From Thermoanaerobaculia bacterium (GTDB lineage Bacteria; Acidobacteriota; Thermoanaerobaculia; Multivoradales; Multivoraceae), in NCBI GenBank assembly GCA_035546295.1, contig DATKBT010000030.1:17134-81133 (forward strand): DNA of 64,000 nt. Direction: 5' to 3'. Position numbers and translations under genes: made by a program. Shown here piece after piece: positions 1,013 to 61,929 of this stretch. Under the pieces are notes generated by a model. The model had not been told where the DNA came from. It made no database searches and was given only the letters and a program-made list of their open reading frames with translations. Position 1 is the first letter of the stretch; every line of letters begins with the position of its first letter.

Positions 1013-1782
1013 GAGCTCTCCTCCTCCTCGCCGCTCGGCTCGAGCGAGAGGCTGCCGGAGACGGGCGCGGGCCCGGCATCGCCGGCGGCGCGCGGCGCTC
1101 GGAAGCCGGCGGCCAGGAACTCGACCAGCCGAGCGGTCGCCTCGCGTGCGTCCCCGGTCGCGCAGCCGCCGCGCGAGAAGAGCGCGAGGTCCTCGCGGTT
1201 GGTCGCCGTCATCGCCATCGCGCCGATCGCGAAATGCAGGCGCCACAGGACGTCCGTCGCCGTCAAGTGGGGAGCCCGGCGGTGGATCGCGGCCACGAAG
1301 CGTCGGGCGACCTCGGCGAAGTTTTCGAGTAGCAGACCACGGACCCGGACGTCGGCCTCGAAGTGGAGGCGACCCAGCAGGCGTACGAAGCCCTCGCACC
1401 CCTCCGCATACTGGAGCGCCGGAGCCATCAGTGCCTCGAGGACCGACTCGAGGTCGTCCTCTCCCTCGGCCTCGAGCCGATCGAGCCACTCGAGCCGCTC
1501 CTCGTTGAGCGGGCGGATGCGCCGCTCGAGGACGGCCAGCACCAGAGCGTCCTTCGACCCGAAGTGGTAGTTGACGGCGGCGATGTTGGCGCCCGCGCGC
1601 TCGGTGATCGCCCGCAGCGAGGTAGCCGAGGCGCCCTGCGCCTCGAACAGCTCCTCGGCGGCGTCGAGCAGGGCCTCCTTGGTGTCTCGGGGCGCCTCGT
1701 CCGCAGCGACGTGCTCCACTGCGTTCGCAGCTCGTCGGGTGTGGCTCACAGCTCGTTCTTCCTCGGCTGGTGCCGATTCCAC
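1009..1782 (-). CDS. TetR/AcrR family regulator, PsrA-like C-terminal domain (alternative start GTG 1749)
   Basis: HTH TKEALLDAAEELF...SLRAITERAGANIAAVNYHFGSKDAL; C-terminal DVLWRLHFAIGAM resembles PsrA-type regulators. Confidence 0.9.
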   Translation of the reverse strand: MESAPAEEERAVSHTRRAANAVEHVAADEAPRDTKEALLDAAEELFEAQGASATSLRAITERAGANIAAVNYHFGSKDALVLAVLERRIRPLNEERLEWLDRLEAEGEDDLESVLEALMAPALQYAEGCEGFVRLLGRLHFEADVRVRGLLLENFAEVARRFVAAIHRRAPHLTATDVLWRLHFAIGAMAMTATNREDLALFSRGGCATGDAREATARLVEFLAAGFRAPRAAGDAGPAPVSGSLSLEPSGEEEESS

Positions 1783-1800
1783 GTCGGCGATTCGCCGCCG

Positions 1801-1847
1801 ATTCTACCATACGGTCGCTTCAATCGATGTTTCAATCGATCGTTTGA
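1801..1847 (-). promoter_or_regulatory. Extended -10 (TGG-TAGAAT, 1809-1801) for tetR plus two overlapping near-palindromic operator-like sites
   Basis: TCAATCGATCGTTTGA (1832-1847) is a near-perfect palindrome; the related TCAATCGATGTTTCA lies at 1820-1834. Confidence 0.6.
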
Positions 1848-1974
1848 GAGGTTCGGCCTCCGGTGCGAAGTGCGCGCTTTTGCCGGTTCCCGGTGAAGGG
1901 GCCGGAGCGGGCGTCCGCGGAGCTCGGCGGCGGCGCCGGCGCCCCTGACGCCCGAGCGGATAGAGTCGGCCGGC

Positions 1975-2850
1975 ATGTTCCAGCGGCAGACCAGCGGCTC
2001 GGTCGTGTGCCCCTCGTGCGGCAGGCTGGTCGGCGTTCGCGATCCGCAGTGCCTGAACTGCGGGCGGCGCAACCCCGGGATGTGGGGGTTCACCCAGCTC
2101 TTCCAGACGCTCGGCCGCGATCTCGGGTTCGGCCCGATCGCGATCGGCACCTGCCTGATCCTCTACGTCGTGAGCCTGGTGATGGATCCCTCCGAGATCG
2201 GGATGGCGGGGTTCTTCGGGCTGCTGTCGCCTTCGGAGCGGGCGCTCGGGCTGTTGGGTTGGAGCGGGGCGGTGCCGGTCTTCGATCAGGGGCGCTGGTG
2301 GTCGGTGCTGAGCGCGGGCTGGCTCCACGGCGGGCTGATCCACATCGGCTTCAACATGTACTGGCTGCACATGCTGTCGCCGGCGACCGCCCACATCTTC
2401 GGTCCCGGCCGCTCGATCCTGCTGTTCGTCGGGTCGTCGGTCGCGGGCTTCGCGGCGACCAGTGTCGTTCTCTACGTCAACGTGTTCTATCTCGGCTTGG
2501 CCGGTCCGCTGCGGGTGGTCGGGCTCTCGGGCGCGGCGTACACCGTGGGCGCCTCCGCCGCCATCTTCGGCTGGATCGGGGCGCTGATCTACTACGGGCG
2601 CCGCACCGGGGGCAGCCAGCTACGCCAGCAGCTCCTCGGCTTCGTGATCCCGATGTTCGTCCTCGGGCTGCTGATTCCCGGCATCGACAACTGGGCGCAC
2701 CTCGGCGGCTTCGGCGGCGGATACCTGCTGGCGAAATGGCTCGATCCGATGAAGCCGGAGCGCATCGACCACATGGTCGTGGCGCTGGTGGCGCTGGCGG
2801 CGAGCCTGCTGGCGGTGCTCGCCTCGGTGATCGTCGGTCTAGGCGGGTGA
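1975..2850 (+). CDS. Rhomboid intramembrane serine protease with N-terminal CxxC..CxxC zinc ribbon
   Basis: CPSC..CLNC; WLHGGLIHIGFNM, GASAAIFG (catalytic Ser), AHLGG (catalytic His); several TM segments. Confidence 0.92.
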   Translation: MFQRQTSGSVVCPSCGRLVGVRDPQCLNCGRRNPGMWGFTQLFQTLGRDLGFGPIAIGTCLILYVVSLVMDPSEIGMAGFFGLLSPSERALGLLGWSGAVPVFDQGRWWSVLSAGWLHGGLIHIGFNMYWLHMLSPATAHIFGPGRSILLFVGSSVAGFAATSVVLYVNVFYLGLAGPLRVVGLSGAAYTVGASAAIFGWIGALIYYGRRTGGSQLRQQLLGFVIPMFVLGLLIPGIDNWAHLGGFGGGYLLAKWLDPMKPERIDHMVVALVALAASLLAVLASVIVGLGG

Positions 2851-2964
2851 CGGCGGCGAGAGCTCACGCAGCCGGCGGCTCGCGCTCTGAGCCGCGAGCG
2901 GCGGCACCGGAGTCGGTGCTGACTCCCTGCGCGATCGCGGCGGTGGGGCCTGTAGGATGCGCCG

Positions 2965-3996
2965 ATGATTCGAGTCGTCGTCGCCGGCGCTTCCGGCTAC
3001 TCGGGGGGCGAGCTGCTGCGCATCCTGGCGGGCCACCCCGAGGTGGAGATCGGGCGCCTGGCCGCCGGCGAGCAGGCGGGGAAGCGGCTCGCGGGGGTCC
3101 ACCCCCGGTTCCGCGGCACCGAGCTCGGCGAGCGGGTGCTCGCCGAGAGCGACTGGAACGCCCTCGGCGAGGGCGCCGACGTCGCCTTCCTCGCGCTGCC
3201 TCACGGCCACGCGATCACGGCGGCCCCACGCCTGCTCGCTCAGGGCTGCCGGGTGATCGACATCGGGGCGGACTTTCGACTGCGCGATCCGCAGCAGTAC
3301 ACGCGCTGGTACGGCCTCGAGCACTCCGCGGTCGATCTCCTGCACGAAGCGGTCTACGGTCTGCCCGAGGTGTTTCGCCCGCGGATCGCCGAGGCTCGGC
3401 TGGTGGCCAACCCCGGCTGCTATCCGACCGCTGCCGCGCTGGCGTTGCTGCCGCTGCTGCCGCACGCCGCCGACGAGGCGATCGTCGTCGACGCCAAGTC
3501 CGGCGTCTCGGGCGCCGGCCGCAAGGCGTCGCTCGAGTACGCGTTCAGCGAGATCGACGAGAGCCTGCGTCCCTACGGCGTGCTCTCGCATCGCCACACC
3601 CCCGAGATCGCCCAGACCCTCGCCTTTGCGGGCGCTCCCCGGCAGGTGGTGTTCACTCCGCACCTGATCCCCATGATCCGGGGCCTCCTCGCCACCTGCT
3701 ACGTCCGCCTCGAGGAGGAGCCGGAGGACCTGCAGGCGCTGTACTCCGAGCGCTATCGGGGGGAGCCCTTCGTCACCGTCCTCGGTCCCGACGAGCTGCC
3801 GGTCACGGGCTCGCTGCGGGGCGTCAACCGCTGCGAGGTCGCAGTCCGCTACGACGCCGAGAACCGTCTGGCCGTCGCCTTCGGCGCGCTCGACAACCTG
3901 GTCAAGGGGGCCGCCGGCCAGGCGGTTCAGAACATGAACCTGATGTTCGGAGTCGACGAGCGGACGGGCCTCGAAGCCGCCCCGACCGGGTCCTGA
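2965..3996 (+). CDS. argC: N-acetyl-gamma-glutamyl-phosphate reductase
   Basis: GASGYSGGEL, ANPGCYPT, DAKSGVSGAGR, DNLVKGAAGQAVQNMN. Confidence 0.97.
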   Translation: MIRVVVAGASGYSGGELLRILAGHPEVEIGRLAAGEQAGKRLAGVHPRFRGTELGERVLAESDWNALGEGADVAFLALPHGHAITAAPRLLAQGCRVIDIGADFRLRDPQQYTRWYGLEHSAVDLLHEAVYGLPEVFRPRIAEARLVANPGCYPTAAALALLPLLPHAADEAIVVDAKSGVSGAGRKASLEYAFSEIDESLRPYGVLSHRHTPEIAQTLAFAGAPRQVVFTPHLIPMIRGLLATCYVRLEEEPEDLQALYSERYRGEPFVTVLGPDELPVTGSLRGVNRCEVAVRYDAENRLAVAFGALDNLVKGAAGQAVQNMNLMFGVDERTGLEAAPTGS

Positions 3997-4013
3997 GGAG
4001 GCGCCGTTCTGCC

Positions 4014-5270
4014 ATGTCCGCGTGGGATCGAGAGATGGAGGCCGAGCTGGCGCCGATCGAGGGGGGCGGCATCACGTCGCCGCGCGGCTTTCGCGCCTCG
4101 GCTGTGGCGAGCGGCATCAAGCGGAGCGGGCTCGATCTCGCGCTGATCGTCTCCGTGCGCGAGGCGAGCGTCGCCGGCATGTTCACCAGCAATCGGGTGC
4201 GCGCCGCGCCGGTGCGCTGGTGCGAGCGCATCGCTGCGCAGGGCGTCGCGCGCGCGATCCTGGCCAACAGCGGCAACGCCAACGCCTGCACCGGGCCCCA
4301 GGGGGAGCGCGACGCCGAGCGGATGGCGGCCGCCGCCGGCCGAGCGCTCGACCTCCCGGCCGATCGGGTGCTCGTGGCCTCGACCGGCGTGATCGGCCAT
4401 CCGCTGCCGGTCGAGCGGATCGAGAAGGCGTTGCCGGCCGCCGTCGCCGGTCTCGGCGGGGACGGGCGGACGGCCGCCGAGGCGATCATGACCACCGACA
4501 CCCGTCCGAAGTCGGCGGCGATCGCTCTCGATCTCGGTGGGCGCAGGGTGGCGTTGGGGGGCATCGCCAAGGGGGCCGGAATGATCGGCCCCGACCTGGT
4601 GCCGCCCCGGCTGGACGAGCCCCTGCACGCGACGATCCTGCTGTTCCTGACCACCGATGCCGCCGTCGCGCCGGTCGCCCTGCGCGAGGCGCTGCGCAGC
4701 GCGATCGACGTCAGCTTCAACGCGATCACGGTCGACGGAGACACCAGCACCAACGACACGGCGCTGCTGCTCGCCAATGGCGAGGCAGGGGGACCACCCC
4801 TCGACGGCGGCGCGCTCGAAGCGTTCACGCGGGCGCTCACCGAGCTCACCCGCGCGCTGGCGCTAGAGATCGTTCGCGACGGCGAGGGCGCGACCCGCGT
4901 GATCCGCATCGAGGTCACCGGCGCGCCGAGCCGAGAGGACGCCAAGCGGGTGGCGATGACGGTCGCCAACTCGCCGCTGGTCAAGACCGCCTTCTCGGCC
5001 GGCGAGCCCAACTGGGGACGGCTGCTGATGGCGGTGGGTCGCTCCGGTGTCGCTGTCGAGGAGCCGCTTCTCTCAGTGCGCATCGGCGGGCTCCAGATCG
5101 TCGAGCGGGGCCTCGGCGCCGGCACCGACCTCGAGGCGCTGCGCGCCGCGATGAGCCTCCCGGAGGCGGAGGTGTCCATCGACCTGGGACTCGGCTCGGC
5201 GTCGTTCACCGCGTGGACCTGTGACCTTTCCGAGGAGTACGTCCGGATCAACGCCCACTACCTCACCTGA
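4014..5270 (+). CDS. argJ: Glutamate N-acetyltransferase / ornithine acetyltransferase
   Basis: C-terminal part of track ORF 1863..5270, from ATG 4014; NSGNANACTG, AIMTTDT, KGAGMI, VDGDTSTNDT, WTCDLSEEYVRINAHY. Confidence 0.96.
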   Translation: MSAWDREMEAELAPIEGGGITSPRGFRASAVASGIKRSGLDLALIVSVREASVAGMFTSNRVRAAPVRWCERIAAQGVARAILANSGNANACTGPQGERDAERMAAAAGRALDLPADRVLVASTGVIGHPLPVERIEKALPAAVAGLGGDGRTAAEAIMTTDTRPKSAAIALDLGGRRVALGGIAKGAGMIGPDLVPPRLDEPLHATILLFLTTDAAVAPVALREALRSAIDVSFNAITVDGDTSTNDTALLLANGEAGGPPLDGGALEAFTRALTELTRALALEIVRDGEGATRVIRIEVTGAPSREDAKRVAMTVANSPLVKTAFSAGEPNWGRLLMAVGRSGVAVEEPLLSVRIGGLQIVERGLGAGTDLEALRAAMSLPEAEVSIDLGLGSASFTAWTCDLSEEYVRINAHYLT

Positions 5271-5436
5271 CGGACCGAGCAGGCAGCGGCGCGCTCGCGC
5301 CGCTACCGTGTCGAGGCGGACGCGACGCGGACGCTGGAGACCCGCCGCGGCCGGCGGTCGGTGGCGACCGACCGCGCTCGATCGGAGGCTCTCGTCGCCG
5401 CGTATGCGAGGATTCGGGCTCCGGATCGGACTGGTC

Positions 5437-6426
5437 ATGAGCGAAACGCCCGAGTCCTCGAACAGCCGGCAGCTCTCCATCTCGCAGGAGGTGCGCGGGG
5501 CCGCGCTCGCCGAGGCCCTCGGCTACGTCGCCGCCTGGCGTCGTCTGCGCGTGGTCGTCAAGTACGGCGGGCACTCGATGACCCCGGAAGGGGAGGGCAC
5601 CCTGATCGAGGACGTCGCCCTGCTCCACCGCGCCGGCGTGCGGGTGGTCCTGGTGCACGGCGGCGGTCCAGAGATCAGCGAGCTGCTCGAGCGGCTCGGT
5701 GTCCCGGGGCGCTTCGTCGACGGGCTGCGGGTCACCGACGAGCCGACGATGCGGGTGGTCGAGATGGTGCTCGGCGGCGGCATCAACAAGCGGCTGGTCG
5801 GTCGTCTGCAGGCGTTCGGCGCGCGCGCCGTCGGCCTGTCCGGCAAGGACGGCGACCTGCTGCAGGCGGTGCCTCACGAGCGCGCCGAGCTCGGCCTCGT
5901 CGGCCGGGTCGCGGCGGTCGACACCGGGGTGCTCACCACGCTCCTCGACGGCGGCTTCGTCCCCGTGATCGCACCCCTCGCACGCGGCGCAGGGGGCGTC
6001 ACCTACAACGTCAACGCGGACCTGGCGGCGGCCGCGATCGCGGGCGCGCTCGAGGCCGAGAAGTTCCTGCTGCTGACCGACGTCCCGGGCGTGCTCGACG
6101 TCCGCAGAGAGCCTCCGAGCCTGCTCTCCGAGCTGAGGCCGGGCGAGGCGCGCACGCTGATCGCGGAGGGCGTGATCTCGCGCGGCATGATCCCCAAGGT
6201 CGAGTCCTGCCTGAGCGCGATCGATCGCGGGGTGCGCAGCGCCCACATCCTCTCGGCGGCGACGCCGCGGGCGCTGCTCCTCGAGCTCTTCACGGACGCC
6301 GGGATCGGCACGATGATCCGCTCCCACCGCGAGGGAGGGCGTCGGCAGGAGCCTGCTCCACGACAGGAGCGAGCCGGCGGCGAGCCGCCGGAGACCGGCG
6401 AGGACGATCCGTCGGGCCCACCCTGA
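5437..6426 (+). CDS. argB: Acetylglutamate kinase
   Basis: VVKYGGHSM, VHGGGPEI, GLRVTD, YNVNAD, GMIPKVES, ELFTDAGIGTMI; start placed at ATG 5437. Confidence 0.96.
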   Translation: MSETPESSNSRQLSISQEVRGAALAEALGYVAAWRRLRVVVKYGGHSMTPEGEGTLIEDVALLHRAGVRVVLVHGGGPEISELLERLGVPGRFVDGLRVTDEPTMRVVEMVLGGGINKRLVGRLQAFGARAVGLSGKDGDLLQAVPHERAELGLVGRVAAVDTGVLTTLLDGGFVPVIAPLARGAGGVTYNVNADLAAAAIAGALEAEKFLLLTDVPGVLDVRREPPSLLSELRPGEARTLIAEGVISRGMIPKVESCLSAIDRGVRSAHILSAATPRALLLELFTDAGIGTMIRSHREGGRRQEPAPRQERAGGEPPETGEDDPSGPP

Positions 6427-12703: not shown

Positions 12704-12713
12704 CTCATGTTCC

Positions 12714-12817
12714 CTAAGGTCGACTAGGCCTGAAATCGTTGATTGCAGGCCGTTTGGGTCCTGCTTGAATCGAACTTTGACCCCTTTGGGAACTTCCTGC
12801 TGGCCTAGTCGACCTAG
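12714..12817 (-). mobile_element. MITE-like palindromic module B (inverted, diverged copy)
   Basis: Perfect 14-bp inverted repeat AGGTCGACTAGGCC (12717-12730) / GGCCTAGTCGACCT (12802-12815). The reverse complement shares CTAGGTCGACTAGGCCAGC.GGAAG and GGTCAAAGTTCGAT with loci 48170 and 61710. Confidence 0.7.
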
Positions 12818-24022: not shown

Positions 24023-25297
24023 GTGGCAGCGAGCAAGAAGACGGCATCGGGCGCAGCGAAGAAGTCTCGGCGTTCGGGAGCAGGCTCTCGGGGCGCTTCC
24101 TCGAAGAAGAGCCGGTCGAGGACGGCGGCTCGAAAGCAGACGTCCAAGAAGAAGGCGACGGCCCGTAAGCCGGCGGCCCGTGGGTCGTCGAAGCCGTCCA
24201 CCGGCAGGAAGACGACCAGCAAGAAGACGTCCAGCAAGAAGACGACGGGCAAAACGACGACCACCAAGAAGACGGCCAAGAAGACGGCCAAGAAGCCGGC
24301 CAAGAAGCCGGCTCGCTCGGCCGCGTCCAAAAGGAGCTCCAGCTCGAGCTCTGAGAGGCGGCGGGCCGCGACCTCGAAGGCCTCCGGCAAGACGGTGAAG
24401 AAGAACGTCCCGAAGAAGAAGAAGACGAAGAAGACGAACAGGGCAGCGGCGTCCCGATCCACCACCGGCGCCGGCAGCGGCACTCGCCAGTCCGCCTCGT
24501 CCGGCAAGTCCGCTAGGAACAAGCCCCGAGCGGCAATGCGCTCAACCAGCAAATCGCCAGCCAAGAAGTCGACGGCCAAGAAGTCGACAGCCAAGAAGTC
24601 GACAGCCAAGAAGTCGACGGCCCGAAGGTCGACGGGGAGCGCGTCCTCGAGACGCAGGTCCGCCGCAAAGCGGTCGGCCGCCGGAACAGCTGCGAGCAAG
24701 AAGAGCCCCACCAAGAAGAGCCCCACCAAGAAGACCTCGCCCAAGAAGGTCTCCACCAAGAAGACCACCAGCAGGAAGAAGACTTCGGCGAAGGTGACAG
24801 CCAAGAGAACGAGTGCGAGCAAGCGCGCCGTCGGTGCATCGAAGCGCAAACGTTCGGCGGCGGCGACCGAGTCCCCGCCGCCGAAGCGGCTACGTCTCTC
24901 CTCCCAGCGCATCAGCCAGGGTCCGCCGCAGGCGACCGAGCAGGCGGATCAGGCCGCGCTGCGCGAGGCGCTGATCGCAAAGCGCGCCGAGGTCCTGCAG
25001 CTCTACGAGCTGGACGTGCGAGCGGGCCTCAAGGGAGCTTCCTCGGACGGCAACGAGGACATCGTCGACCTCGCCAACAGCGCCTACAACCGCGAGCTGA
25101 GCTTCGCCATCTCCGACAGCGAGCGTGAGCTGCTCCAGCAGATCGACGAGGCGCTCGCCCGAATGGAGGAGGGCAGCTTCGGAGCCTGCACGTCCTGCGG
25201 CCAACCGATCGCCTCACCGCGGTTGCGGGCGATTCCCTGGGCGCGGTACTGTATCGACTGCCAAGAGCTTGAAGAGCGTGGCCTGCTCCGGGAGTGA
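24023..25297 (+). CDS. DksA/TraR C4 zinc-finger protein with a long histone-H1-like Lys/Ser/Thr/Ala-rich N-terminus
   Basis: RBS AGGAGG before GTG; C-terminal DIVDLA, CTSC..RLRAIPWARYCIDCQE; N-terminal KKSTA repeats. Confidence 0.85.
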   Translation: MAASKKTASGAAKKSRRSGAGSRGASSKKSRSRTAARKQTSKKKATARKPAARGSSKPSTGRKTTSKKTSSKKTTGKTTTTKKTAKKTAKKPAKKPARSAASKRSSSSSSERRRAATSKASGKTVKKNVPKKKKTKKTNRAAASRSTTGAGSGTRQSASSGKSARNKPRAAMRSTSKSPAKKSTAKKSTAKKSTAKKSTARRSTGSASSRRRSAAKRSAAGTAASKKSPTKKSPTKKTSPKKVSTKKTTSRKKTSAKVTAKRTSASKRAVGASKRKRSAAATESPPPKRLRLSSQRISQGPPQATEQADQAALREALIAKRAEVLQLYELDVRAGLKGASSDGNEDIVDLANSAYNRELSFAISDSERELLQQIDEALARMEEGSFGACTSCGQPIASPRLRAIPWARYCIDCQELEERGLLRE

Positions 25298-28269: not shown

Positions 28270-29094
28270 GTGCCGGAGCTTCCCGAGGTCGAGGTCCTGC
28301 GGCGCTCGCTCGAGGCCCGCGTGCTGGGCGACCGGGTGGAGTCGGTGGCCGTCCGGTTCCCGACCCTGCGCGAGCCGATCTCAGCGCCGGTGCTACGCCG
28401 GCGACTCGCCGGCCGGCGGATCGAGCGGCTGCGACGGCGGGCCAAGTACCTGCTGATGGACGTCGAGGGGGGATCCACGCTGGTCGTCCACCTCGGCATG
28501 AGCGGGCGCCTGCTGGTGGTTCCCGCCGGCGAGCCGAGCGCTCCCCACGAGCACGTCGTGATCTCGCTCGCGTCGGGACGGACCCTGCGCTTTCGCGACC
28601 CGCGGCGCTTCGGCCTGCTGCTGGCGCTGCCGACCGGACGGATCGAGCGGGATCGCCACTTCCGCCACCTCGGGGTCGAGCCGCTCGAGAGCGGCTTCGA
28701 CGGAGCACGGCTCGCGGCGAAGGCCCGAGGCCGTTTCGGGCCCGTCAAGAGCTTCTTGATGGACGCCGCGATCGTCGTGGGAGTGGGCAACATCTACGCC
28801 TGCGAGGCCCTCCACCTGGCGGGGATCCACCCTGCCCGCTCGGTCGCACGGATCTCGCAAAGGCGATTCGACGGCCTCGCCTCGGCGGTGCGCGACGTCC
28901 TCGGCCGCGCCATCGCGGAGGGCGGCACCACGCTCAACGACTTCGCCGACGCCGACGGCGAGCCGGGGTACTTCGCGGTCTCGCTCCACGTCTACGGGCG
29001 CGAGGGGGAGCCCTGCCTGCGCTGCGGCGCCATCGTGCGGCGCATCGTGCAGTCGAACCGCTCCACCTTCTACTGTCCGCGCTGTCAGCGCTAG
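28270..29094 (+). CDS. mutM: Formamidopyrimidine-DNA glycosylase
   Basis: PELPEVE, RRAKYL, HLGMSG, DPRRFG, GVGNIYACE, CLRC..CPRCQ zinc finger. Confidence 0.97.
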   Translation: MPELPEVEVLRRSLEARVLGDRVESVAVRFPTLREPISAPVLRRRLAGRRIERLRRRAKYLLMDVEGGSTLVVHLGMSGRLLVVPAGEPSAPHEHVVISLASGRTLRFRDPRRFGLLLALPTGRIERDRHFRHLGVEPLESGFDGARLAAKARGRFGPVKSFLMDAAIVVGVGNIYACEALHLAGIHPARSVARISQRRFDGLASAVRDVLGRAIAEGGTTLNDFADADGEPGYFAVSLHVYGREGEPCLRCGAIVRRIVQSNRSTFYCPRCQR

Positions 29095-29423
29095 CCTCCG
29101 ATCTGCTTGGGCGCGCTGCGCGCGCTATAGCAGATCTCCGGCTAGCGATTCCTCGCGGCTCCAAGCGCCTCCGGCGCGTCGCCGCGGACAGCCGTAGAAC
29201 CGGATCTCGGAGATTGACGAAGTCTCGAATCTCCCTTCACGGGTTGCTCCGCAGCATCTCTCGAGTCGATCCGCGACCGGCTCCAACCCGAGCTGAGGCG
29301 CAGCCGAAGCGAGCGAAGGTGAGGTGCGGCGAGCCTGCGAGTCGTACCCAGCCCAGCGCCTTCGACGCGTCGCCGGGGAACAGCCGTAGAAGCGGATCTT
29401 GAAGACTCCGGCCAGGCTCCTAG
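29091..29423. repeat. CTAG-bounded mosaic palindromic repeat locus (modules A + D + spacer + D')
   Basis: 29091-29145 is nearly identical to 48119-48173; 29142-29201 is nearly identical to 48435-48494; internal direct repeat at 29164-29207 / 29355-29399; CTAG at 29091, 29142 and 29420. Confidence 0.85.
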
Positions 29424-30070
29424 CGCCCACCGCTGAGGAGCTGTTCGATGCGGGCGGTGACCATCTCCATGGCGACGCGGTTCTCGCCGCCCTCGGGGAC
29501 GATGACGTCGGCCCAGCGCTTCGACGGCTCGATGAACTCGAGGTGCATCGGGCGCACCGTCTCGAGATACTGGCGGATCACGTCCGGCACCGTGCGTCCG
29601 CGCTCCTCGACGTCGCGCATCAGCCGTCGGATCAGCCTCACGTCAGCGTCGGTGTCGACGAAGATCTTGAAGTCGAGCAGATCACGAACCCGGGGCTCGG
29701 CGAACAGCAGGATGCCCTCGACCAGCACCACCGGGCGCGCCCCCGTGCGCTTCGTCTCGGGTCGTCGCCGGTGCCCGACGAAGTCGTAGACGGGAACCTC
29801 GACGTCGCGGCCGGCGCGCAGCGCGGCGAGCTGCTCCACCAAGAGGTCGGTGTCGAGCGCGTCCGGGTGGTCGAAGTTGTGGCGGCGCAGCTCCTCCGGG
29901 TCGCGCCACTCGATGTCCCGGTAGTAGGCATCCTGGACCAAAAAGGCGATCCGCGACGCCCCGACCGTGCGCAGGATCGTCTGCGCCACCGTCGTCTTGC
30001 CCGAGCCGCTGCCGCCGGCGACCCCGATGGTGGTCGCAGCCGTTCGTCGAGCCTTCTTTTCGGCGACCAT
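29420..30070 (-). CDS. udk: Uridine kinase
   Basis: IGVAGGSGSGKTT, QDAYY, NFDHPDA, VEGILLF, FVDTDADVRL, FIEPSKRWAD. Confidence 0.96.
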   Translation of the reverse strand: MVAEKKARRTAATTIGVAGGSGSGKTTVAQTILRTVGASRIAFLVQDAYYRDIEWRDPEELRRHNFDHPDALDTDLLVEQLAALRAGRDVEVPVYDFVGHRRRPETKRTGARPVVLVEGILLFAEPRVRDLLDFKIFVDTDADVRLIRRLMRDVEERGRTVPDVIRQYLETVRPMHLEFIEPSKRWADVIVPEGGENRVAMEMVTARIEQLLSGGR

Positions 30071-30073
30071 CGA

Positions 30074-31843
30074 TCAGCCCGCCGTGAGCGGCCAGAAAAT
30101 CGGTATCAACACCATCGACACCAGCCAGAACATGATCTTGATCGGCGCGCCGTAGATCACGTAGTCCGTGAAGCGGTAACCGCCGGGACCATAGACCATG
30201 GCGTTGGTCTGGTACCCATCGGGGTCAGGAAGCTCGCCGACGCGGCGTAGGCGACGGTCATCAGGAGCGGCTTGCTGTCGAGTCCCAGGGACTCGGCGGC
30301 GGTGAGCGCGATCGGCACCATCAGGACCGCCGTCGAGTTGTTGGAGACGATCTCGGAGATCAGGGCGGTCGCGAGATAGACCAGGGAGAGGACCGCGAAC
30401 GGCCCGAGCGAGCGCCCCGCCGACGCCAGGGACCCGCCGATCAGGGCGGCCAGGCCGGTGTTCTCCATCGCGATCCCGAGCGGCAGGATGGCGGCCAGCA
30501 GGAAGATCACCGTCCAGTTGATCGACTCGTAGGCCTGCTGCACGCGGATCGAGCGGCTCAGCAGCAGGGCGACGACGCCGAGGATCGACGCCTTGAGGAT
30601 CGACATCAGGCCGAGCGAGGCCGCGATCACGACCACCGGGATGATCGCTACCGCGACCCACCAGCGCCGCGGCAGCGAGAGGCGGATGTCGAGCTCCTGG
30701 AGCGTCGTCGAGACGGTACAACGACTCGACCCGCGAGCGAGGGCCGAACACCAGGAGCGTGTCCCACTGGCGCAGCTCGATCGAGGTCAGCTTCTCGCGG
30801 ATCATCTCGCCGGTCCGGTTGAGCGCCAGCACGAAGCAGCCGAAGCGGCGGCGGAAGTCGATCTCCTTGATGGTGCGCCCGTTGAGCCGCGACAGCGGCG
30901 AGAGCTGGACCTCGACCAGGATGTTGTTGCCGGCCGCGAGGTCCTTGTCCTCGAGCTTGACGTCGGTCAAGAGGAGCAGCCCGTACTGCTCCCGAAACGA
31001 CAGGATGCCCTCCATCGCGCCGCGCACGATCAGCACGTCGCCGCCCTCGAGCGAGAGGCTGCGCAGGTCGAACGCGATGCGCTCGGCGCCGCGCAGCACC
31101 TCCAGCACGTTGAGCTGGAAGCGCTCGTTGAGGTGGGCGTCGACCACCGTCTGGCCGGCCAGGCGGGAGCCGGACGGGATGCGCAGCTCGGTCAGGTAGT
31201 TCCCGAGGCGGTACTTGCCGGTGAGGTCCGAGGGCTGGACCCGTGCCGGCAGGAGGCGCACCAGCAGCAGCGTGTAGGCGCCGCCGATCACGAACAGCAC
31301 CGAGCCGAGCGGCAGGAACTCGAAGACCCGGAAGGGGTCCTCGCCGTGGTCCTCGGCGAGTGCGCTGACCAGCAGGTTGGTCGAGGTGCCGATCAGGGTG
31401 CAGGAGCCGCCGACGATGCTGAGGTAGGACAGCGGGAGCAGGATCTTCGAAGCGCTGATGCCGTAGTGCCGCGAGAGCTGGAGCCCGAGCGGCAGGAAGA
31501 GCGCGACCGCGGCGGTGTTGTTGATGAACGCCGAGAGCACGCCGCCGACCACCAGCAGGGAGGCGATGGCGAGCCAGCTCGAGGTTCCGGCGAGCTGGGA
31601 CACCTTCTGGCCGAAGCGCCGGACCAGCCCCGTATGGATCAGCGCCTGGCTCAGGATGAACATCATCATCACCGTGATCACGGCCGGGTTGGAGAAGCCC
31701 GAGATCGCCTGTTCGGCGGTGATCAGGTCGAACACCAGGAGCAGCGCCAGCGAGGTCAGCGCGACCACGTCGATCGGCATCCAGTCCAGGCTGAACGCCA
31801 GGAAGGTCACGACCAGGATGGCGATGAGGATCGGGATTTCCAT
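30074..31843 (-). CDS. SLC13/CitT-like permease with TrkA_C domains; two compensating frameshifts (near 30705 and 30216)
   Basis: GFSNPAVIT, FINNTAAV, LIGTSTNL and TrkA_C repeats in one frame; SINWTVIFLLA..VSNNSTAVLM..FLTPMG in the frame of ORF 30157..30636; YQTNAMVYGPGGYRFTDY back in the first frame. Confidence 0.8.
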   Translation of the reverse strand: MEIPILIAILVVTFLAFSLDWMPIDVVALTSLALLLVFDLITAEQAISGFSNPAVITVMMMFILSQALIHTGLVRRFGQKVSQLAGTSSWLAIASLLVVGGVLSAFINNTAAVALFLPLGLQLSRHYGISASKILLPLSYLSIVGGSCTLIGTSTNLLVSALAEDHGEDPFRVFEFLPLGSVLFVIGGAYTLLLVRLLPARVQPSDLTGKYRLGNYLTELRIPSGSRLAGQTVVDAHLNERFQLNVLEVLRGAERIAFDLRSLSLEGGDVLIVRGAMEGILSFREQYGLLLLTDVKLEDKDLAAGNNILVEVQLSPLSRLNGRTIKEIDFRRRFGCFVLALNRTGEMIREKLTSIELRQWDTLLVFGPRSRVESLYRLDDAPGARHPPLAAAALVGRGSDHPGGRDRGLARPDVDPQGVDPRRRRPAAEPLDPRAAGLRVDQLDGDLPAGRHPAARDRDGEHRPGRPDRRVPGVGGALARAVRGPLPGLSRDRPDLRDRLQQLDGGPDGADRAHRRRVPGTRQQAAPDDRRLRRVGELPDPDGYQTNAMVYGPGGYRFTDYVIYGAPIKIMFWLVSMVLIPIFWPLTAG

Positions 31844-32161
31844 GGCGAAGCGGCGAGCGCCGCGCCCTCGCCGCGAGGCCGATGAGGCGCCGGAGAGCCG
31901 GTCGCATAGTATCGATCGGTTCCCACCTCCCTGCCGGCTCCGCGACCAAGGGGCTGCCGGGCGACGCTGCCCGGTCGCTCGCGGCCGCGCGGCCCGCAGG
32001 AGCGAACCGGCCGGCGCGGAATAAGGCGCGGCCGCTCCCTCGTTGCGATGCCTGCAGATGACCGAAACCCTCCTGACCACCTTTTGCGTCTGGTGAAGGC
32101 GCATCGAGTGACGGCGGAGGCGAAGAGCGCTCGCGGCGGGACCCGACGAGCTGCGATCTCG

Positions 32162-33154
32162 ATGGCGGACGGAACCGAATCCATGAGCTCCCCCGAATCG
32201 ATCGTGTCGGTGGCTGGAGCTGCCGCGGGTGCCGTGACGGCGACGCTCCCATCCCCGGCTGCCGATCCCGCGCCCGCCGTCGGCCCGGCGGTCGAGACGG
32301 TGCCGGTCCCGCCCAGGAGGTGGCGAGGGTCGCTCGCGCCGCTGATGCTGGCGGGAGGCATCGGTGCCCTCGGCGTTCTGCGCCAGCGCTTCCAGCACGG
32401 CCAGATGTTCCTTCCCGAGCGCTACCCCAACGGTCTGTGGCAGCCCCAGAGCTACGGCGTCGCCGCCGAGGACGTCTGGTTCTCGTCGGCCGATGGGACG
32501 CGGCTGCACGGGTGGTGGATGCCCGCGCGGCGGGCGCGGGGGACGGTGCTCTATTGTCACGGCAACGCCGGCAACATCACCAACCGAATCGGCGCCTATC
32601 GCCTGCTCCACCGGGCGCGCCTCAACGTCTTCGCGTTCGACTACCGGGGCTACGGGCGCAGCGAAGGCCGACCCAGCGAGCCGGGGGTGCTGGCGGACGC
32701 GCGCGCCGCCCACGACTCTCTGGTCAACGAGATCGAGGAGAGCCCGGAACGGATCCTCTTCTTCGGGCACTCGCTGGGGGGCGCCATCGCCATCGACTGC
32801 GCGCTGCACCGACGCGGCGTCGGGCTGGTGGTGCAGTCGTCGTTCACCAACGTCCGAGAGATGGCGCGCGTCCGCTTCCCCAGCCTGCCGATGCACCTGG
32901 TGGCGCGCAACCAGTTTCGCAGTCTCGACAAGGTCTCCCAGGTCACCATCCCCAAGCTCTTCATCCACGGCACAGCGGACGAGACGATCCCGGTGCGGCT
33001 GGGGCGGCGGCTGTTCGAGCACGCGTCGGATCCGAAGGAGTGGTACGAGGTGCCTCACGCCGGTCACAACGACGTCCCGCTCCACGGCGGCCTGCGCTAC
33101 CTCTGGAAGCTGATCGGCTTCGCCAAGCGCGCGATCCGCGGCGCTCGCGCGTAG
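32162..33154 (+). CDS. Alpha/beta hydrolase (ABHD/BEM46-like)
   Basis: LYCHGNAGN, FDYRGYGRSEG, GHSLGG, IHGTADE, AGHND. Confidence 0.9.
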   Translation: MADGTESMSSPESIVSVAGAAAGAVTATLPSPAADPAPAVGPAVETVPVPPRRWRGSLAPLMLAGGIGALGVLRQRFQHGQMFLPERYPNGLWQPQSYGVAAEDVWFSSADGTRLHGWWMPARRARGTVLYCHGNAGNITNRIGAYRLLHRARLNVFAFDYRGYGRSEGRPSEPGVLADARAAHDSLVNEIEESPERILFFGHSLGGAIAIDCALHRRGVGLVVQSSFTNVREMARVRFPSLPMHLVARNQFRSLDKVSQVTIPKLFIHGTADETIPVRLGRRLFEHASDPKEWYEVPHAGHNDVPLHGGLRYLWKLIGFAKRAIRGARA

Positions 33155-48118: not shown

Positions 48119-48542
48119 CTAGCCTCCGATCTGCTTGGGCGCGCTGCGCGCGCTGTAGCAGATCTCCGGCTAGGTCGACTAGGCCAGCGGGAAGTTCTTG
48201 CCTGCCTTGCGGCAGGCGGCGGTCGTTGGCCTCGCGCAAGCGCGAGACCAAGGCTCACAAGACGGTCAAAGTTCGATCAAGCCGCTGCGCTCGCCCAGAG
48301 AAACGGCTGTGGCCTGGTCGACCCAACCGCGCCCGCTTGCGGGCTTGCGGCGCACGAGTGATCGGCTAGCGGGCTCGTGGTATGACCGCCGCGACCTCGC
48401 TGCTCGTTGGGGAGTGGTGAACACCACGAGCCCGCTAGCGATTTCTCGCGGCTTCAAGCGCCTCCGGCGCGTCGCCGCGGACAGCCGGAGAACCGAGCGA
48501 CTGTTGCACCGCCCACTGCCAGTTCCTCGGACAGCATCCTAG
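48119..48542. mobile_element. CTAG-bounded mosaic repeat locus, modules A-B-B2-C-D (nested MITE-like)
   Basis: CTAG at 48119, 48170, 48179, 48366, 48435 and 48539; modules are shared with loci 29091, 61710 and 12714. Confidence 0.8.
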
Positions 48543-48671
48543 GGCGCGAAGAGTGGCGAGAGCACGACTCGCGCCGCGAGCGGCTGCGTGTCGATCCCGA
48601 GCTTCTCCGGCCGTCGGGTAGAGTTCGCGACTCTTCCTGGAGGCGCGGCGGGCAACGACGGAGATGAGACG

Positions 48672-50192
48672 ATGAGCAGACCGACCGGCTCCGAGCTGAT
48701 GGAGAGGATCGTCGCGCTGGCGAAGCGGCGCGGCTTCGTCTTCCCGGCGTCCGAGATCTACGGCGGCGTCAACGGCTTCTGGGACTACGGCCCGCTGGGC
48801 GTCCAGCTCAAGAACAACCTCCGTGACGCCTGGTGGCACGACACCGTGCTCTGTCCTCCGATCGGGCCCGACGGCCATCCGGTCGACGTCGTCGGCCTGG
48901 ACTCGGCGATCATCCAGAACCCGCGGGTGTGGGAGGCGAGCGGACACGTCGCCGGGTTCTCGGACCCGATGGTCGACTGCCGGGAGACCAAGGCCCGCTA
49001 TCGCGCCGATCACCTCCAGGTGCTCCTCTTCGATGGCGCCGGGGAGGGGGAGCAGGCGCTGCTCGTCTTCGTCGAAGGCGAGCCCGAGCCGGCGCTCAAG
49101 CGGGCGCAGAAGGTGCTGAGGCGCAAGGTCGACCTCGACGAGGCCCAGCGGATGCCGTTCTCGTCGTTGAGCGCAGACCAGCGGGAGCGGGTGTGGGCGC
49201 CCGGCGCCTCGGAGCCGGGAACGCTGACCGCCCCGCGTGAGTTCAACCTCATGTTCCGGACCAGGATCGGCGCCACCAGCGGCGACGACAACGTCGCCTA
49301 CCTCCGGCCCGAGACCGCCCAGGGAATCTTCCTCAACTACAAGAACGTCGTCGACACGACGAGGGTGAAGATCCCCTTCGGCATCGCCCAGGTCGGCAAG
49401 GCCTTCCGCAACGAGGTCACGCCGCGCAACTTCATCTTCCGCAGCCGCGAGTTCGAGCAGATGGAGATGGAGTGGTTCTGCGAGCCCGAAGAGGCGCCGA
49501 GGTGGTTCGAGTTCTGGGTGAACGAGCGGCTGGAGTGGTGGAAGTCGGTGGGAGTCTCCGAGGCCAATCTCCGGCTGCGCAAGCACGAGGCGGACGAGCT
49601 GGCCCACTACGCCAAGAGCGGTGAGGGGACCTACGACGTCGAGTACCGCTACCCGTTCACGGAACCCGGGTTCGGCGAGCTCGAGGGAATCGCACACCGG
49701 GGCTGCTTCGACCTCGAGCAGCATCAGGAGTGGAGCAAGACGAAGCTCGAGGCCTTCGATCCTCAGACCCAGAGGCGGTTCCTGCCCCACGTGATCGAGC
49801 CGGCGAGCGGGCTGACCCGCGGGGTCCTGGTGCTGCTCTGCGAGGCGTACGACGTCGATCCCGAGCGACCTTCTCCCGAGATCATGCGCTTTCCCCCGCG
49901 TCTGGCGCCGATCAAGGCCGGGATCTTTCCACTGGTCGCCAAGGCCGGAATGCCCGAGATCGCCGAGAAGCTCTACTTGGACCTGAGGGCGCGCTTCCCT
50001 GCTCAGTTCGACGTCAAGCAGTCGATCGGCAAGCGCTACGCGCGCATGGACGAGGCCGGGACACCCTACTGCTTCACCATCGACGGCCAGTCGGTCGAGG
50101 ACCAGACCGTCACGGTTCGCGATCGGGACACGGGGAGCCAGGAGCGGATCGCGCTCGACGCAGTGGCGGGCTTCCTGAGCGAGCGCGTGTGA
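48672..50192 (+). CDS. glyQS: Glycine--tRNA ligase, homodimeric alpha2 type
   Basis: KRRGFVFPASEIYGG, FNLMF, YLRPETAQGIF, QVGKAFRNEVTP, FRSREFEQME, HVIEP, SIGKRYARMDEAGTPYC. Confidence 0.96.
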   Translation: MSRPTGSELMERIVALAKRRGFVFPASEIYGGVNGFWDYGPLGVQLKNNLRDAWWHDTVLCPPIGPDGHPVDVVGLDSAIIQNPRVWEASGHVAGFSDPMVDCRETKARYRADHLQVLLFDGAGEGEQALLVFVEGEPEPALKRAQKVLRRKVDLDEAQRMPFSSLSADQRERVWAPGASEPGTLTAPREFNLMFRTRIGATSGDDNVAYLRPETAQGIFLNYKNVVDTTRVKIPFGIAQVGKAFRNEVTPRNFIFRSREFEQMEMEWFCEPEEAPRWFEFWVNERLEWWKSVGVSEANLRLRKHEADELAHYAKSGEGTYDVEYRYPFTEPGFGELEGIAHRGCFDLEQHQEWSKTKLEAFDPQTQRRFLPHVIEPASGLTRGVLVLLCEAYDVDPERPSPEIMRFPPRLAPIKAGIFPLVAKAGMPEIAEKLYLDLRARFPAQFDVKQSIGKRYARMDEAGTPYCFTIDGQSVEDQTVTVRDRDTGSQERIALDAVAGFLSERV

Positions 50193-61709: not shown

Positions 61710-61921
61710 CTAGGTCGACTAGGCCAGCGGGAAGCTCACAGAATGGTCAAAGTTCGATCAAGCCGCTGCGCTCGCCCAGAGAAACGGCTGTGGCCTGGTC
61801 GACCCAGCCGCGCCCGCTTGCGGGCTTGCGGCGCACGAGTGATCGGCTAGCGTGCTCGTGGTATGACCGCGCCGCGACCTCGCTGCTCGTTGGGGAGTGG
61901 TGAACACCACGAGCCCGCTGG
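61710..61921. mobile_element. CTAG-bounded module B-B2-C, second copy of the unit at 48170-48438
   Basis: Near-identical to 48170-48194 plus 48254-48438; CTAG at 61710, 61719 and 61847; right end degenerate (CTGG). Confidence 0.8.
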
Positions 61922-61929
61922 CCCTGGCC

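What the first reader, a model, noticed from the sequence alone, without database searches (positions are those of the whole stretch)
29091..29423. Mosaic repeat filling the mutM/udk convergence exactly from one TAG stop to the other
Seen: the locus begins at the CTAG containing the mutM stop (29092-94) and ends at the CTAG containing the udk stop (29420-22). The locus at 12700 likewise follows a CTAG holding the moaE stop. It contains module A (51-bp hairpin), module D and a second diverged D. CTAG appears rare elsewhere in the window by eye. Inference: a CTAG-targeting element family that lands harmlessly on C-TAG stop codons and may also act as a bidirectional terminator or mRNA stabiliser, like BIMEs.
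Basis: partly seen in the sequence, partly recalled or inferred. Interest (0 to 1): 0.7.

Follow-up and report, generated by a model that had tools for sequence, protein, structure and literature searches.

The report
CTAG-bounded mobile palindromic repeat nest
The gap between two convergent housekeeping genes of an uncultured soil acidobacterium is filled by a nest of short, high-copy, hairpin-forming mobile DNA modules that are joined at the rare sequence CTAG and tend to sit on TAG stop codons. This is a new variant of the REP/BIME and MITE kind of bacterial repeat.

Summary
mutM ends in TAG at 29092-94 and udk in CTA at 29420-22, both inside a CTAG. The 325 nt between them are repeat modules: A (55-nt hairpin), D, and a second D carrying module E.

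CTAG occurs 25 times in the window against about 80 expected, and 16 of the 25 lie in four repeat loci.

The modules are dispersed, with roughly 100-300-fold excess depth in soil metagenomes. They are also polymorphic:
- The closest relatives have an empty 36-nt or 118-nt mutM/udk spacer where the mutM stop reads GTAG.
- One relative has a different module after a CTAG stop.
- Near-identical strains lack a 369-nt CTAG-to-CTAG block, a 105-nt TIR element, or 237 nt of this spacer.

In 8 of 9 independent loci the left CTAG of A is the in-frame stop of the upstream gene.

Most likely these are non-autonomous elements that integrate at the TA of CTAG. Each insertion recreates the target on both sides, so nests grow. 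The enzyme is unknown: IS630/Tc1-type DDE is favoured and RAYT-like HUH is the main rival.

A terminator or stabiliser role is untested; there is no canonical terminator and no RNA data. The middle 75 nt of the mosaic could not be verified in reads.

The parts
28270..29094 (+). mutM/fpg gene. Its stop TAG (29092-94) lies in CTAG 29091-94.
   Evidence: ORF; homologues with Fapy_DNA_glyco/H2TH/zf-FPG domains. MutM ends ...CQR* with a TAG stop in all four lineages.
29091..29145 (+). Module A: a CTAG-to-CTAG hairpin with 17-nt arms, a conserved TCC/TCC internal mismatch and an inner GC hairpin.
   Evidence: Eleven copies are aligned. The flanking CTAGs were not part of the search pattern and are present in 9/11 copies on the left and 11/11 on the right.
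29142..29196 (+). D1 core: an imperfect palindrome running from CTAG to GTAG.
   Evidence: It follows A directly in 9 of the 10 sequenced A sites; at the tenth, window 48119, a 265-nt block separates A and D.
29197..29259 (+). D1 tail: variable in length, ending ...gcagcatct before CTCGAG. The middle of this stretch is unverified in reads.
   Evidence: Compared with D tails in L010, L011, L013, L016, L020, L025 and window 48496-48542. No unitig covers it and no run holds it.
29260..29284 (+). D2 left arm. It starts with CTCGAG where other copies have CTAG.
   Evidence: By eye against the D left arms of L020 and L028.
29285..29352 (+). Module E, sitting inside D2 after ...GGCTCC. It is not CTAG-bounded.
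   Evidence: Same position inside D in L020, L028 and L031 5106-5164. No significant fold.
29353..29389 (+). D2 core, right half, ending in GTAG at 29386-89.
29390..29423 (+). Tail module T plus the terminal CTAG, whose CTA is the udk stop.
   Evidence: T is absent in the X5 strain, where the D core abuts CTAG-udk. T occurs reversed next to the moaE stop in L037.
29420..30070 (-). udk (uridine kinase). Its TAG stop is unique to this lineage and its C-terminal tail is 3-9 aa shorter than in relatives.
   Evidence: Pfam PRK; tails compared.
12713..12817 (-). Module F: a 105-nt element with about 16-nt TIRs (GGTCGACTAGGCC), flanked CTA...TAG, 10 nt after the moaE stop CTAG (12700-03).
   Evidence: Absent from strain contig L036, which has one TAG at the site.
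48119..48173 (+). Second copy of A, 3 nt after the TGA stop of a histidine phosphatase gene.
48170..48326 (+). Module F interrupted by module H (48195-48253; two hairpins, not CTAG-bounded).
   Evidence: F copies without H appear as joints that skip 59-60 nt.
48327..48369 (+). Module F2: a small hairpin unit lying between a CCAG and a CTAG.
   Evidence: Its depth differs from that of F.
48366..48438 (+). Module G: a 73-nt CTAG-to-CTAG hairpin with perfect 16-nt arms.
   Evidence: G-type copies at L031 5183-5255 and 10822-10896.
48435..48542 (+). D copy with tail, running from CTAG to CTAG. The whole block 48174-48542 is absent in the X2 strain.
   Evidence: Joint 48173->48543 in a single-copy X2 contig.
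61710..61922 (+). F-F2-G block, 98% identical over 175 nt to the copy at 48264-48436. It fills the GGDEF/GlnE convergent spacer.
   Evidence: Replaced by an unrelated 116 nt in the X2 and X3 strains.

Best explanation
The spacer is a nest of short, non-coding palindromic modules (A, D, E and tail T here; F, F2, G and H elsewhere in the window). They belong to a high-copy repeat family that varies between strains, in an uncultured soil Thermoanaerobaculia (Acidobacteriota).

**Shown**
- The modules are discrete units found at unrelated loci.
- They are gained or lost between close strains.
- Most are joined to each other and to unique DNA at CTAG or a one-base variant of it.

**Inferred mechanism**
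- The modules are non-autonomous transposable elements that integrate at the TA of a (C)TA(G) target.
- Because the element ends read G...C, each insertion leaves a CTAG on both sides.
- A filled site therefore offers two new targets, further modules pile in, and a mosaic grows outward from one original CTAG.
- CTAG is about 9-fold depleted outside the repeats. C-TAG stop codons are the commonest place where an insertion does no harm, so nests typically start exactly on a stop codon. Here the nest runs from the mutM stop to the udk stop.

**Most likely enzyme (inferred, not found)**
One or more trans-acting DDE transposases of the IS630/Tc1-mariner type, which duplicate TA and prefer CTAG, acting on the terminal inverted repeats.

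**Possible host effect (not tested)**
Hairpins that protect mRNA 3' ends.

I put about 0.85 on mobile modules joined at (C)TA(G), and about 0.5 on the whole statement including the DDE/TA mechanism.
For: **Dispersal**
- Four loci in the window share modules at 88-100% identity.
- Eight further A copies lie in unrelated gene contexts in soil metagenome contigs.
- Unitig depth over the modules is 1000-5500 against 15-19 for flanking single-copy DNA in X1, with similar ratios in X2 and X3.

**Empty and filled sites**
1. mutM/udk spacer:
   - L030: 36 nt with no repeat; stop context agGTAGg.
   - L034: 118 nt with no repeat; stop context cgGTAGc.
   - L031: a G-type hairpin plus a D core directly after cgCTAGc.
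2. The X5 strain (98% identical in udk) lacks 29183-29419.
3. The X2 strain has A-CTAG joined directly to unique DNA at 48543. It lacks the 369-nt block 48174-48542, which itself ends in CTAG.
4. Everywhere else A and D share one CTAG. In locus 3 a 265-nt F-F2-G block sits exactly in that CTAG, with CTAG on both sides.
5. Strain contig L036 lacks the 105-nt F element and has a single TAG where the window has CTA[F]TAG.
6. The locus 4 spacer differs in the X2 and X3 strains.

**Recency**
Copies within the genome are 95-98% identical, about the same as orthologous DNA between strains.

**Stop codons**
- The left CTAG of A is the in-frame stop in 8 of 9 independent loci.
- The right cluster end is the stop of the convergent gene in the window, L010 and L011.
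- The mutM TAG stop is ancestral.

**TA/DDE reading**
- A, F and G have symmetrical TIRs starting right after TA.
- Variant borders keep TA: CTAA, CTAC, GTAG.
- IS630 prefers the TA in CTAG (Tenzen & Ohtsubo 1991, cited in PMC2170065).
- A CTAG-duplicating 100-nt bacterial MITE is known (MITEPsy1, PMC3189936).
Against: - No transposase of any kind was found. The Pfam scans cover only part of the 64-kb window, and none appears in the called genes of the relatives' loci.
- At least four unrelated TIR sequences share only the CTAG. This needs several transposases, or an enzyme that reads the tetranucleotide plus a hairpin.
- A is only 47-51 nt, smaller than usual MITEs.
- D has poor TIRs and no significant fold.
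- E and H are not CTAG-bounded.
- Tandem A-D-A-D arrays (L015) and a conserved symmetric mismatch in the A stem look more like REP/BIME biology.
- A TA duplication, a 4-bp CTAG duplication and HUH cleavage at CT|AG all leave the same scar, because CTAG is a palindrome.
- Only one orthologous empty site is known as actual sequence, and its left flank is diverged.
- The depth figures are community-wide, not per genome.
Confidence: 0.5

Rival explanations
1. These are REP/REPIN-like elements moved by a single-strand HUH tyrosine transposase (RAYT- or TIRYT-like). CTAG would combine the CT cleavage dinucleotide with the AG that guides it. The mobile unit would be AG-hairpin-CT, inserted into a CT|AG site, and this also leaves CTAG on both sides.
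For: - Several palindrome families share only a tetranucleotide tag, as in the GTAG REP superfamily. GTAG REP ends are reported often to provide the TAG stop of flanking ORFs (PMC3733652).
- RAYTs cleave at a CT 5' or 3' of the hairpin, and the CT is proposed to be selected by A3G4 of the tag. A CTAG-tagged substrate is still cleaved, at reduced rate, by the S. maltophilia enzyme (PMC8266576).
- A is a 47-55-nt hairpin with a conserved internal mismatch.
- BIME-like tandem arrays are present.
- A mini A-type hairpin in a distant relative keeps its stem through a compensatory change.
- RAYT-like genes flanked by long TIR families (TIRYTs) are reported in Acidobacteria.
Against: - No Y1 transposase gene was seen.
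- The tag is CTAG at both ends and is paired in the stem, not an unpaired GTAG at one end.
- F has classic TIRs 70 nt apart.
- Variant borders conserve TA rather than AG/CT.
Confidence: 0.3
2. These are MITEs of an IS5-family transposase that duplicates a 4-bp YTAR target (CTAG), as MITEPsy1 does.
For: - Most borders show the full CTAG on both sides.
- MITEPsy1 is 100 nt with 18-nt TIRs and duplicates CTAG or YTAA (PMC3189936).
- F has the same size and layout.
Against: - F at 12713-12817 is flanked CTAA...CTAG, and the empty strain has aTAG.
- Module ends do not resemble the GG/GA-initiated IS5 ends quoted.
- No IS5 transposase was seen.
Confidence: 0.1
3. These are host-selected structural or regulatory sequences (bidirectional terminators, mRNA 3' stabilisers, protein-binding sites) that spread mainly by recombination or gene conversion rather than transposition.
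For: - Clusters lie at gene 3' ends, often between convergent genes.
- A forms a long hairpin as RNA on both strands.
- REP/BIME elements have such roles in E. coli (established knowledge).
Against: - No hairpin-plus-T-run terminator is present, and there is no Rfam match.
- Close strains and relatives do without the modules at the same loci.
- The precise CTAG-to-CTAG presence/absence is not what homologous recombination produces.
- The family's high copy number and the near-identity of its copies fit a selfish spread.
Confidence: 0.05
4. The mosaic is an assembly artefact: repeats were mis-joined in a metagenome-assembled contig.
For: The middle of the spacer (about 29227-29264) has no unitig of at least 99% identity in the best-matching run. 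No indexed run holds 29196-29300.
Against: - Both outer ends, including both stop-codon CTAGs and the junctions with A and D2, are covered by 0-mismatch single-copy unitigs.
- mutM/udk adjacency is syntenic in relatives.
- The same module junctions recur in independent assemblies.
Confidence: 0.03

Closest known systems
REP / BIME / REPIN elements with RAYT (TnpA-REP) transposases; the GTAG-tagged REP superfamily
   Same: - Short imperfect palindromes present in hundreds of copies.
- Intergenic, mostly at gene 3' ends.
- Several families per genome sharing only a tetranucleotide tag.
- Mosaic and tandem clusters.
- Element ends that coincide with TAG stop codons.
- Presence/absence variation between strains.
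   Different: - The tag is CTAG, not GTAG or CGTC. It is present at both ends and base-paired.
- Some units (F, G) are TIR elements of 73-105 nt.
- No RAYT was found.
- The host is Acidobacteriota rather than the well-studied Proteobacteria.
IS630/Tc1-mariner family and its bacterial MITEs (IS630 itself targets the TA in CTAG)
   Same: - Borders are C-TA...TA-G.
- TIRs are symmetrical and start right after TA.
- There is a single TAG at the one sequenced empty site.
- Small non-coding units occur in either orientation.
   Different: - No cognate IS was seen.
- At least four unrelated TIR types are present.
- A is far smaller than known MITEs.
- Nesting is dense and stop codons are occupied.
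MITEPsy1 of Pseudomonas syringae (derived from ISPsy2)
   Same: About 100 nt with about 18-nt TIRs. It inserts at CTAG, which then flanks both sides.
   Different: - The terminal sequences are different.
- MITEPsy1 makes a 4-nt duplication, whereas F here shows CTAA/CTAG flanks and an aTAG empty site.
- MITEPsy1 is not reported as nested mosaics on stop codons.
Correia elements (NEMIS) of Neisseria and RIMEs of Rhizobium (from my own knowledge, not checked here)
   Same: TA-flanked TIR repeats, or mosaic intergenic palindromes, lying close to genes and co-transcribed with them.
   Different: The sequences and hosts are unrelated, and no CTAG rule is described for them.

Membership tests
REP (GTAG/CGTC-tagged) elements | Imperfect palindrome of about 20-50 nt | tested here: met
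   A has 47 nt between its CTAGs and folds at dG -20.2 kcal/mol, z -4.5. G is 73 nt, z -4.7. The D core is palindromic by eye, but its fold is not significant.
REP (GTAG/CGTC-tagged) elements | Conserved GTAG (or CGTC) tetranucleotide at one end, outside the stem | tested here: not met
   The tag is CTAG at both ends and lies within the stem. Only the D core ends in GTAG, and only in some copies.
REP (GTAG/CGTC-tagged) elements | High copy number, intergenic, clustered into mosaic/tandem arrays (BIME) | tested here: met
   Depth is about 100-300 times single copy. There are four clusters in 64 kb. L015 has an A-D-A-D array.
REP (GTAG/CGTC-tagged) elements | Cognate RAYT (Y1/HUH) gene flanked by the repeats | not testable with these tools
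   None was found among the window ORFs scanned or in the called genes of the relatives' loci.
MITE of IS630/Tc1-mariner type | Terminal inverted repeats on a short non-coding unit | tested here: met
   A has 17-nt arms, G 16-nt perfect arms and F about 16-nt arms. D is weak.
MITE of IS630/Tc1-mariner type | TA target-site duplication, shown by a filled site against an empty site | tested here: inconclusive
   Window ...cCTA[F]TAGagg against L036 ...caaTAGagg. The X2 joint leaves one CTAG. Both are compatible with a TA duplication, but equally with a 4-bp duplication or HUH cleavage at CT|AG.
MITE of IS630/Tc1-mariner type | Autonomous partner IS with the same ends | not testable with these tools
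   None is present in the DNA held. The genome-contig scan gave only chance hits.
IS5-type MITE (MITEPsy1-like) | 4-bp YTAR duplication, identical on both sides | tested here: inconclusive
   Most borders are CTAG/CTAG, but F at 12713-12817 has CTAA/CTAG and its empty site reads aTAG.
Intrinsic (Rho-independent) terminator | GC-rich hairpin followed by a T/U run | tested here: not met
   0 sites on either strand of 28800-29700.
Any curated RNA family (Rfam 15) | Covariance-model match | tested here: not met
   No match at gathering score in the whole window. No match at E<=1 in 29050-29460.

The most novel reading that the evidence does not exclude
A third, CTAG-tagged superfamily of REP-like elements, alongside the GTAG and CGTC superfamilies, found in Acidobacteriota.
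- A palindromic tetranucleotide would serve at once as cleavage site (CT), guide (AG) and integration target.
- Every insertion would then regenerate two targets, so BIME-like mosaics assemble themselves.
- These mosaics would preferentially occupy, and sometimes supply, TAG stop codons.
Probability: 0.3. Interest if true: 0.75.

Novelty: new variant of a known kind. Interest (0 to 1): 0.58.

Why it matters
- How mosaic repeat clusters such as BIMEs form is still unclear. A palindromic target that is recreated on both sides of every insertion gives a simple rule for how they grow, and strain comparisons can test it.
- The rule also links the depletion of one tetranucleotide, the choice of stop codon and the spread of a selfish element.
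- The family lies in a poorly studied, uncultured soil lineage (Thermoanaerobaculia).
- Practically, these modules break metagenome assemblies, since unitigs end at them, and they can shift gene ends. The udk tail here is shortened and ends on an element-associated TAG.
- If the mobiliser proves to be a CTAG-specific HUH or DDE enzyme, it would be a compact sequence-specific integration system.

Tried and rejected
- **Species-representative genomes.** A scan of 185,579 genomes for module A gave 9 hits, all chance matches inside genes.
- **Viral contigs.** Scans for A and for the D core gave only chance hits.
- **RNA evidence.** No RNA run holds the locus, so 3' ends could not be examined.
- **Known RNA and terminator features.** Rfam gave nothing for the whole window at gathering score or for the spacer at E<=1. 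There are no tRNA or tmRNA genes and no promoter- or terminator-like sites.
- **Search for a mobiliser.** Pfam scans of 20 window ORFs or ORF segments found only housekeeping families or nothing, and no transposase. The contigs that carry A hold ordinary-looking ORFs; these were read by eye and not scanned.
- **Near-identical udk-carrying contig.** I looked for one to read the shorter mosaic of the X5 strain as sequence. The best Udk homologue apart from the window's own is 87% identical. One look-up returned no DNA.
- **Verifying the middle of the mosaic.** No unitig covers it and no indexed run holds it.
- **Udk read-through.** I considered that the residues read through the udk stop (EPG) were a remnant of the ancestral Udk tail. 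I rejected this because the same letters are the ordinary end of the D tail in other copies.
- **E as independent insertions.** I considered that E is an independent insertion each time. It sits at the same position in four D copies, so D(E) is better seen as a long subfamily of D.
Full report
**1. What is in the sequence**

The window is 71% G+C. mutM/fpg runs 28270..29094 (+) and ends in TAG at 29092-94. udk runs 29420..30070 (-) and ends in CTA at 29420-22. Both stops lie inside a CTAG. The 325 nt between them break down as follows:

| Coordinates | Part | Notes |
|---|---|---|
| 29091-29145 | Module A | 55 nt from CTAG to CTAG; 17-nt arms with a TCC/TCC internal mismatch around an inner GC hairpin; DNA dG -20.2 kcal/mol, z -4.5 |
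| 29142-29196 | D core | Runs from CTAG to GTAG |
| 29197-29259 | D tail | Variable |
| 29260-29389 | Second D | Left arm starts CTCGAG; split by module E (29285-29352) |
| 29390-29419 | 30-nt tail | |
| 29420-29423 | Final CTAG | Holds the udk stop |

Three more loci in the window share modules:
- 12713-12817: F, a 105-nt element with about 16-nt inverted ends.
- 48119-48542: A, then F interrupted by H, then F2, G and D.
- 61710-61922: F, F2 and G, 98% identical over 175 nt to the copy at 48264-48436.

CTAG occurs 25 times against 79.7 +/- 8.7 expected. Sixteen of these are in the four loci, which cover about 1.1 kb. The remaining 9 comprise:
- 3 inside genes;
- 1 three codons before a stop;
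- 2 stop codons;
- 3 in 5' leaders.

**2. Where it comes from**

Only soil metagenome runs hold the stretch. The closest named relatives are Thermoanaerobaculia bacterium MAGs. No species-representative genome carries module A.

**3. Dispersal**

I scanned metagenome contigs with the inner arms of A only. This returned 8 true copies, each in a different gene context. The flanking letters were not in the pattern, yet CTAG is present on the right in 11 of 11 aligned copies and on the left in 9 of 11. The two exceptions read CCAG and CTGG.

Nine of the ten sequenced A sites run straight into D through a shared CTAG; window 48119 is the exception. L015 has a tandem A-D-A-D array.

I laid Logan unitigs of four soil runs on the window. 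Depth over the modules is 1000-5500, against 15-19 on flanking single-copy DNA in X1. The ratios are similar in X2 and X3. These figures cover the whole community at 85-88% identity or better, so "hundreds of copies per genome" is an estimate and not a count.

**4. Empty sites and polymorphism**

The mutM -> <- udk arrangement is conserved in the nearer relatives, but the spacer is not:

| Relative | MutM identity | Spacer | mutM stop context |
|---|---|---|---|
| L030 | 84% | 36 nt, no repeat | agGTAGg |
| L034 | 77% | 118 nt, no repeat | cgGTAGc |
| L031 | 80% | G-type hairpin plus a short D core, directly after the stop | cgCTAGc |

So the two lineages with CTAG at the stop are both filled, with different modules. 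The two lineages with GTAG are both empty.

Between near-identical strains:
- The X5 strain (98% identical in udk) joins a D core directly to CTAG-udk and lacks 29183-29419.
- The X2 strain joins A-CTAG (48173) directly to unique DNA at 48543. It lacks a 369-nt block that ends in CTAG.
- The X2 and X3 strains have an unrelated 116 nt in place of the 259-nt locus 4 spacer.
- Contig L036 (MoaD-E 96% identical) reads ...ggggTAGcacaaTAG|aggccgg..., where the window reads ...ctggCTAGctcatgttccCTA[F, 105 nt]TAG|aggccgg....

Within the window, A and D share one CTAG at 29142-45. At 48170-48438 a 265-nt F-F2-G block sits in exactly that CTAG, with CTAG on both sides. The direct A-D junction is the common form in the runs (joint 48168->48434).

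The relative L031 carries a reversed D(E) and a G hairpin, each CTAG-bounded, in a divergent spacer where the window has neither.

**5. Stop codons**

I assigned the coding frame from third-position G+C. By that test, the left CTAG of A contains the in-frame TAG stop of the upstream gene in 7 of 8 metagenome copies and at mutM. The frame call for L010 rests on only 24 nt of flank. The exception is the locus 48119/L025, where a TGA lies 3 nt upstream.

The right end of the cluster is the stop of a convergent gene in the window (udk), in L010 (CTAG) and in L011 (CTAC).

MutM ends ...CQR-TAG in all four lineages, so A landed on an existing stop. Udk is different. Relatives end in TGA and have tails 3-9 residues longer. 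The udk TAG therefore arose in this lineage, either before the insertion or with it.

In more distant relatives udk follows mutM on the same strand and overlaps it by 4 nt. The convergent arrangement, and hence a fast-changing udk tail, is a derived state of this clade.

**6. Mechanism**

What is shown:
- The modules are discrete.
- They occur in either orientation.
- They are gained or lost between strains.
- Most are joined at CTAG or a one-base variant of it.

Variant borders either keep the TA (CTAA, CTAC, GTAG) or are transitions of it (CCAG, CTGG).

My inference is that these are non-autonomous elements integrating at the TA of (C)TA(G). The element ends read G...C, so each insertion leaves CTAG on both sides. 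One target becomes two, which explains nesting and the growth of a mosaic from one original site. CTAG is otherwise rare, and insertions in genes or leaders are harmful. C-TAG stops are thus the main harmless targets.

I favour a trans-acting DDE transposase of IS630/Tc1-mariner type:
- IS630 prefers the TA in CTAG (cited in PMC2170065).
- A, F and G have symmetrical inverted ends starting right after TA.

A bacterial CTAG-duplicating MITE is also known (MITEPsy1, PMC3189936).

The main rival is a RAYT/TIRYT-like HUH enzyme:
- REP families share a tetranucleotide tag, and their ends often provide TAG stops (PMC3733652).
- RAYTs cut at a CT selected by the AG of the tag, and one of them tolerates a CTAG tag (PMC8266576).
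- Cleavage at CT|AG would leave the same scar.

Because CTAG is a palindrome, the scars cannot separate these models, and no transposase was found in the DNA I could reach. E and H do not obey the CTAG rule. E sits at the same position in four D copies, so it marks a long D subfamily.

**7. Function for the host**

There is no hairpin-plus-T-run terminator, no Rfam match and no RNA data. A would form a long hairpin in transcripts from both strands, so 3'-end protection is plausible by analogy with REP. It is untested.

**8. Reliability**

Unitigs with 0 mismatches at single-copy depth cover 28479-29117 and 29296-29536. These spans include both stop-codon CTAGs. No unitig of at least 99% identity covers about 29227-29264, and no indexed run holds 29196-29300. 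The inner join between the first D tail and the second D is therefore unverified.

**9. Verdict**

This is a real, dispersed repeat family that varies between strains, and it is a new variant of the REP/BIME and MITE kind. It fails the defining tag test for GTAG/CGTC REPs, and it cannot yet be assigned to an IS family.

Its distinctive points are the palindromic CTAG junction, the self-nesting this implies, and the regular occupation of TAG stop codons.

Noticed in passing
window 24023-25297 (+); repeats 24117-24830: A protein with a DksA/TraR C4 zinc finger (aa 384-419) carries a long lysine-rich N-terminal region encoded by 15-nt tandem repeats (KKTxx-like). The ortholog in L031 is only about 50% identical, and only over its C-terminal three-quarters.
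   Followed up: partly
window 30074-32300 (-): A CitMHS/TrkA-C permease gene lies between udk and the alpha/beta-hydrolase gene. It is absent at that place in L030, L031 and L034, where the spacers are 326-466 nt. The gene reads in two frames (30157-30636 in one, the rest in another). This means two compensating frameshifts, a pseudogene or an assembly error.
   Followed up: partly
L046 2180-3675, L047 1-1199 (and the P0245 contig): In more distant Thermoanaerobaculia relatives udk follows mutM on the same strand with a 4-nt overlap, and a Leu/Phe-tRNA transferase gene comes next. The convergent mutM/udk arrangement of the window's clade is therefore derived: udk was inverted and that gene is not there. 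This may explain the variable Udk tails.
   Followed up: partly
L025 1029; L015 (second A); window 48311-48326, 61792-61807, 61919-61922; L031 10938-10941: Where a module border is no longer CTAG it often reads CCAG or CTGG, a T->C or A->G transition. This is the direction expected from a very-short-patch-repair-like bias, or from GC-biased mutation. Other variant borders keep the TA (GTAG, CTAC, CTAA).
   Followed up: no
window 29208-29283: The middle of the mutM/udk mosaic has no matching unitig at 99% or better in the best run. No indexed run holds 29196-29300, although both flanks are confirmed.
   Followed up: yes
L037 3120-3157: There is a 38-nt mini version of A (CTAGCCgcaGATGTGCTaaccAGCACATCgaaGGCTAC). 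It lacks the inner hairpin and has a compensatory C/G swap in the stem. It lies next to a reversed D-tail module that abuts the moaE stop.
   Followed up: partly
window 48195-48253; L013 (597-662 in stored orientation): Module H consists of two adjacent GC hairpins (z -2.6). It is very abundant in the runs and occurs in tandem, but it is bounded by AAG/AAGG, not CTAG. It is inserted in F after GGGAAG, and many F copies lack it.
   Followed up: partly
window 48725-48835, 29978-30038, 28758-28818: Short coding stretches (an aminoacyl-tRNA synthetase motif, the udk P-loop, a mutM motif) also show 10-100-fold excess unitig depth at 85-88% identity. Conserved motifs shared across the community therefore inflate such depth figures.
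   Followed up: no
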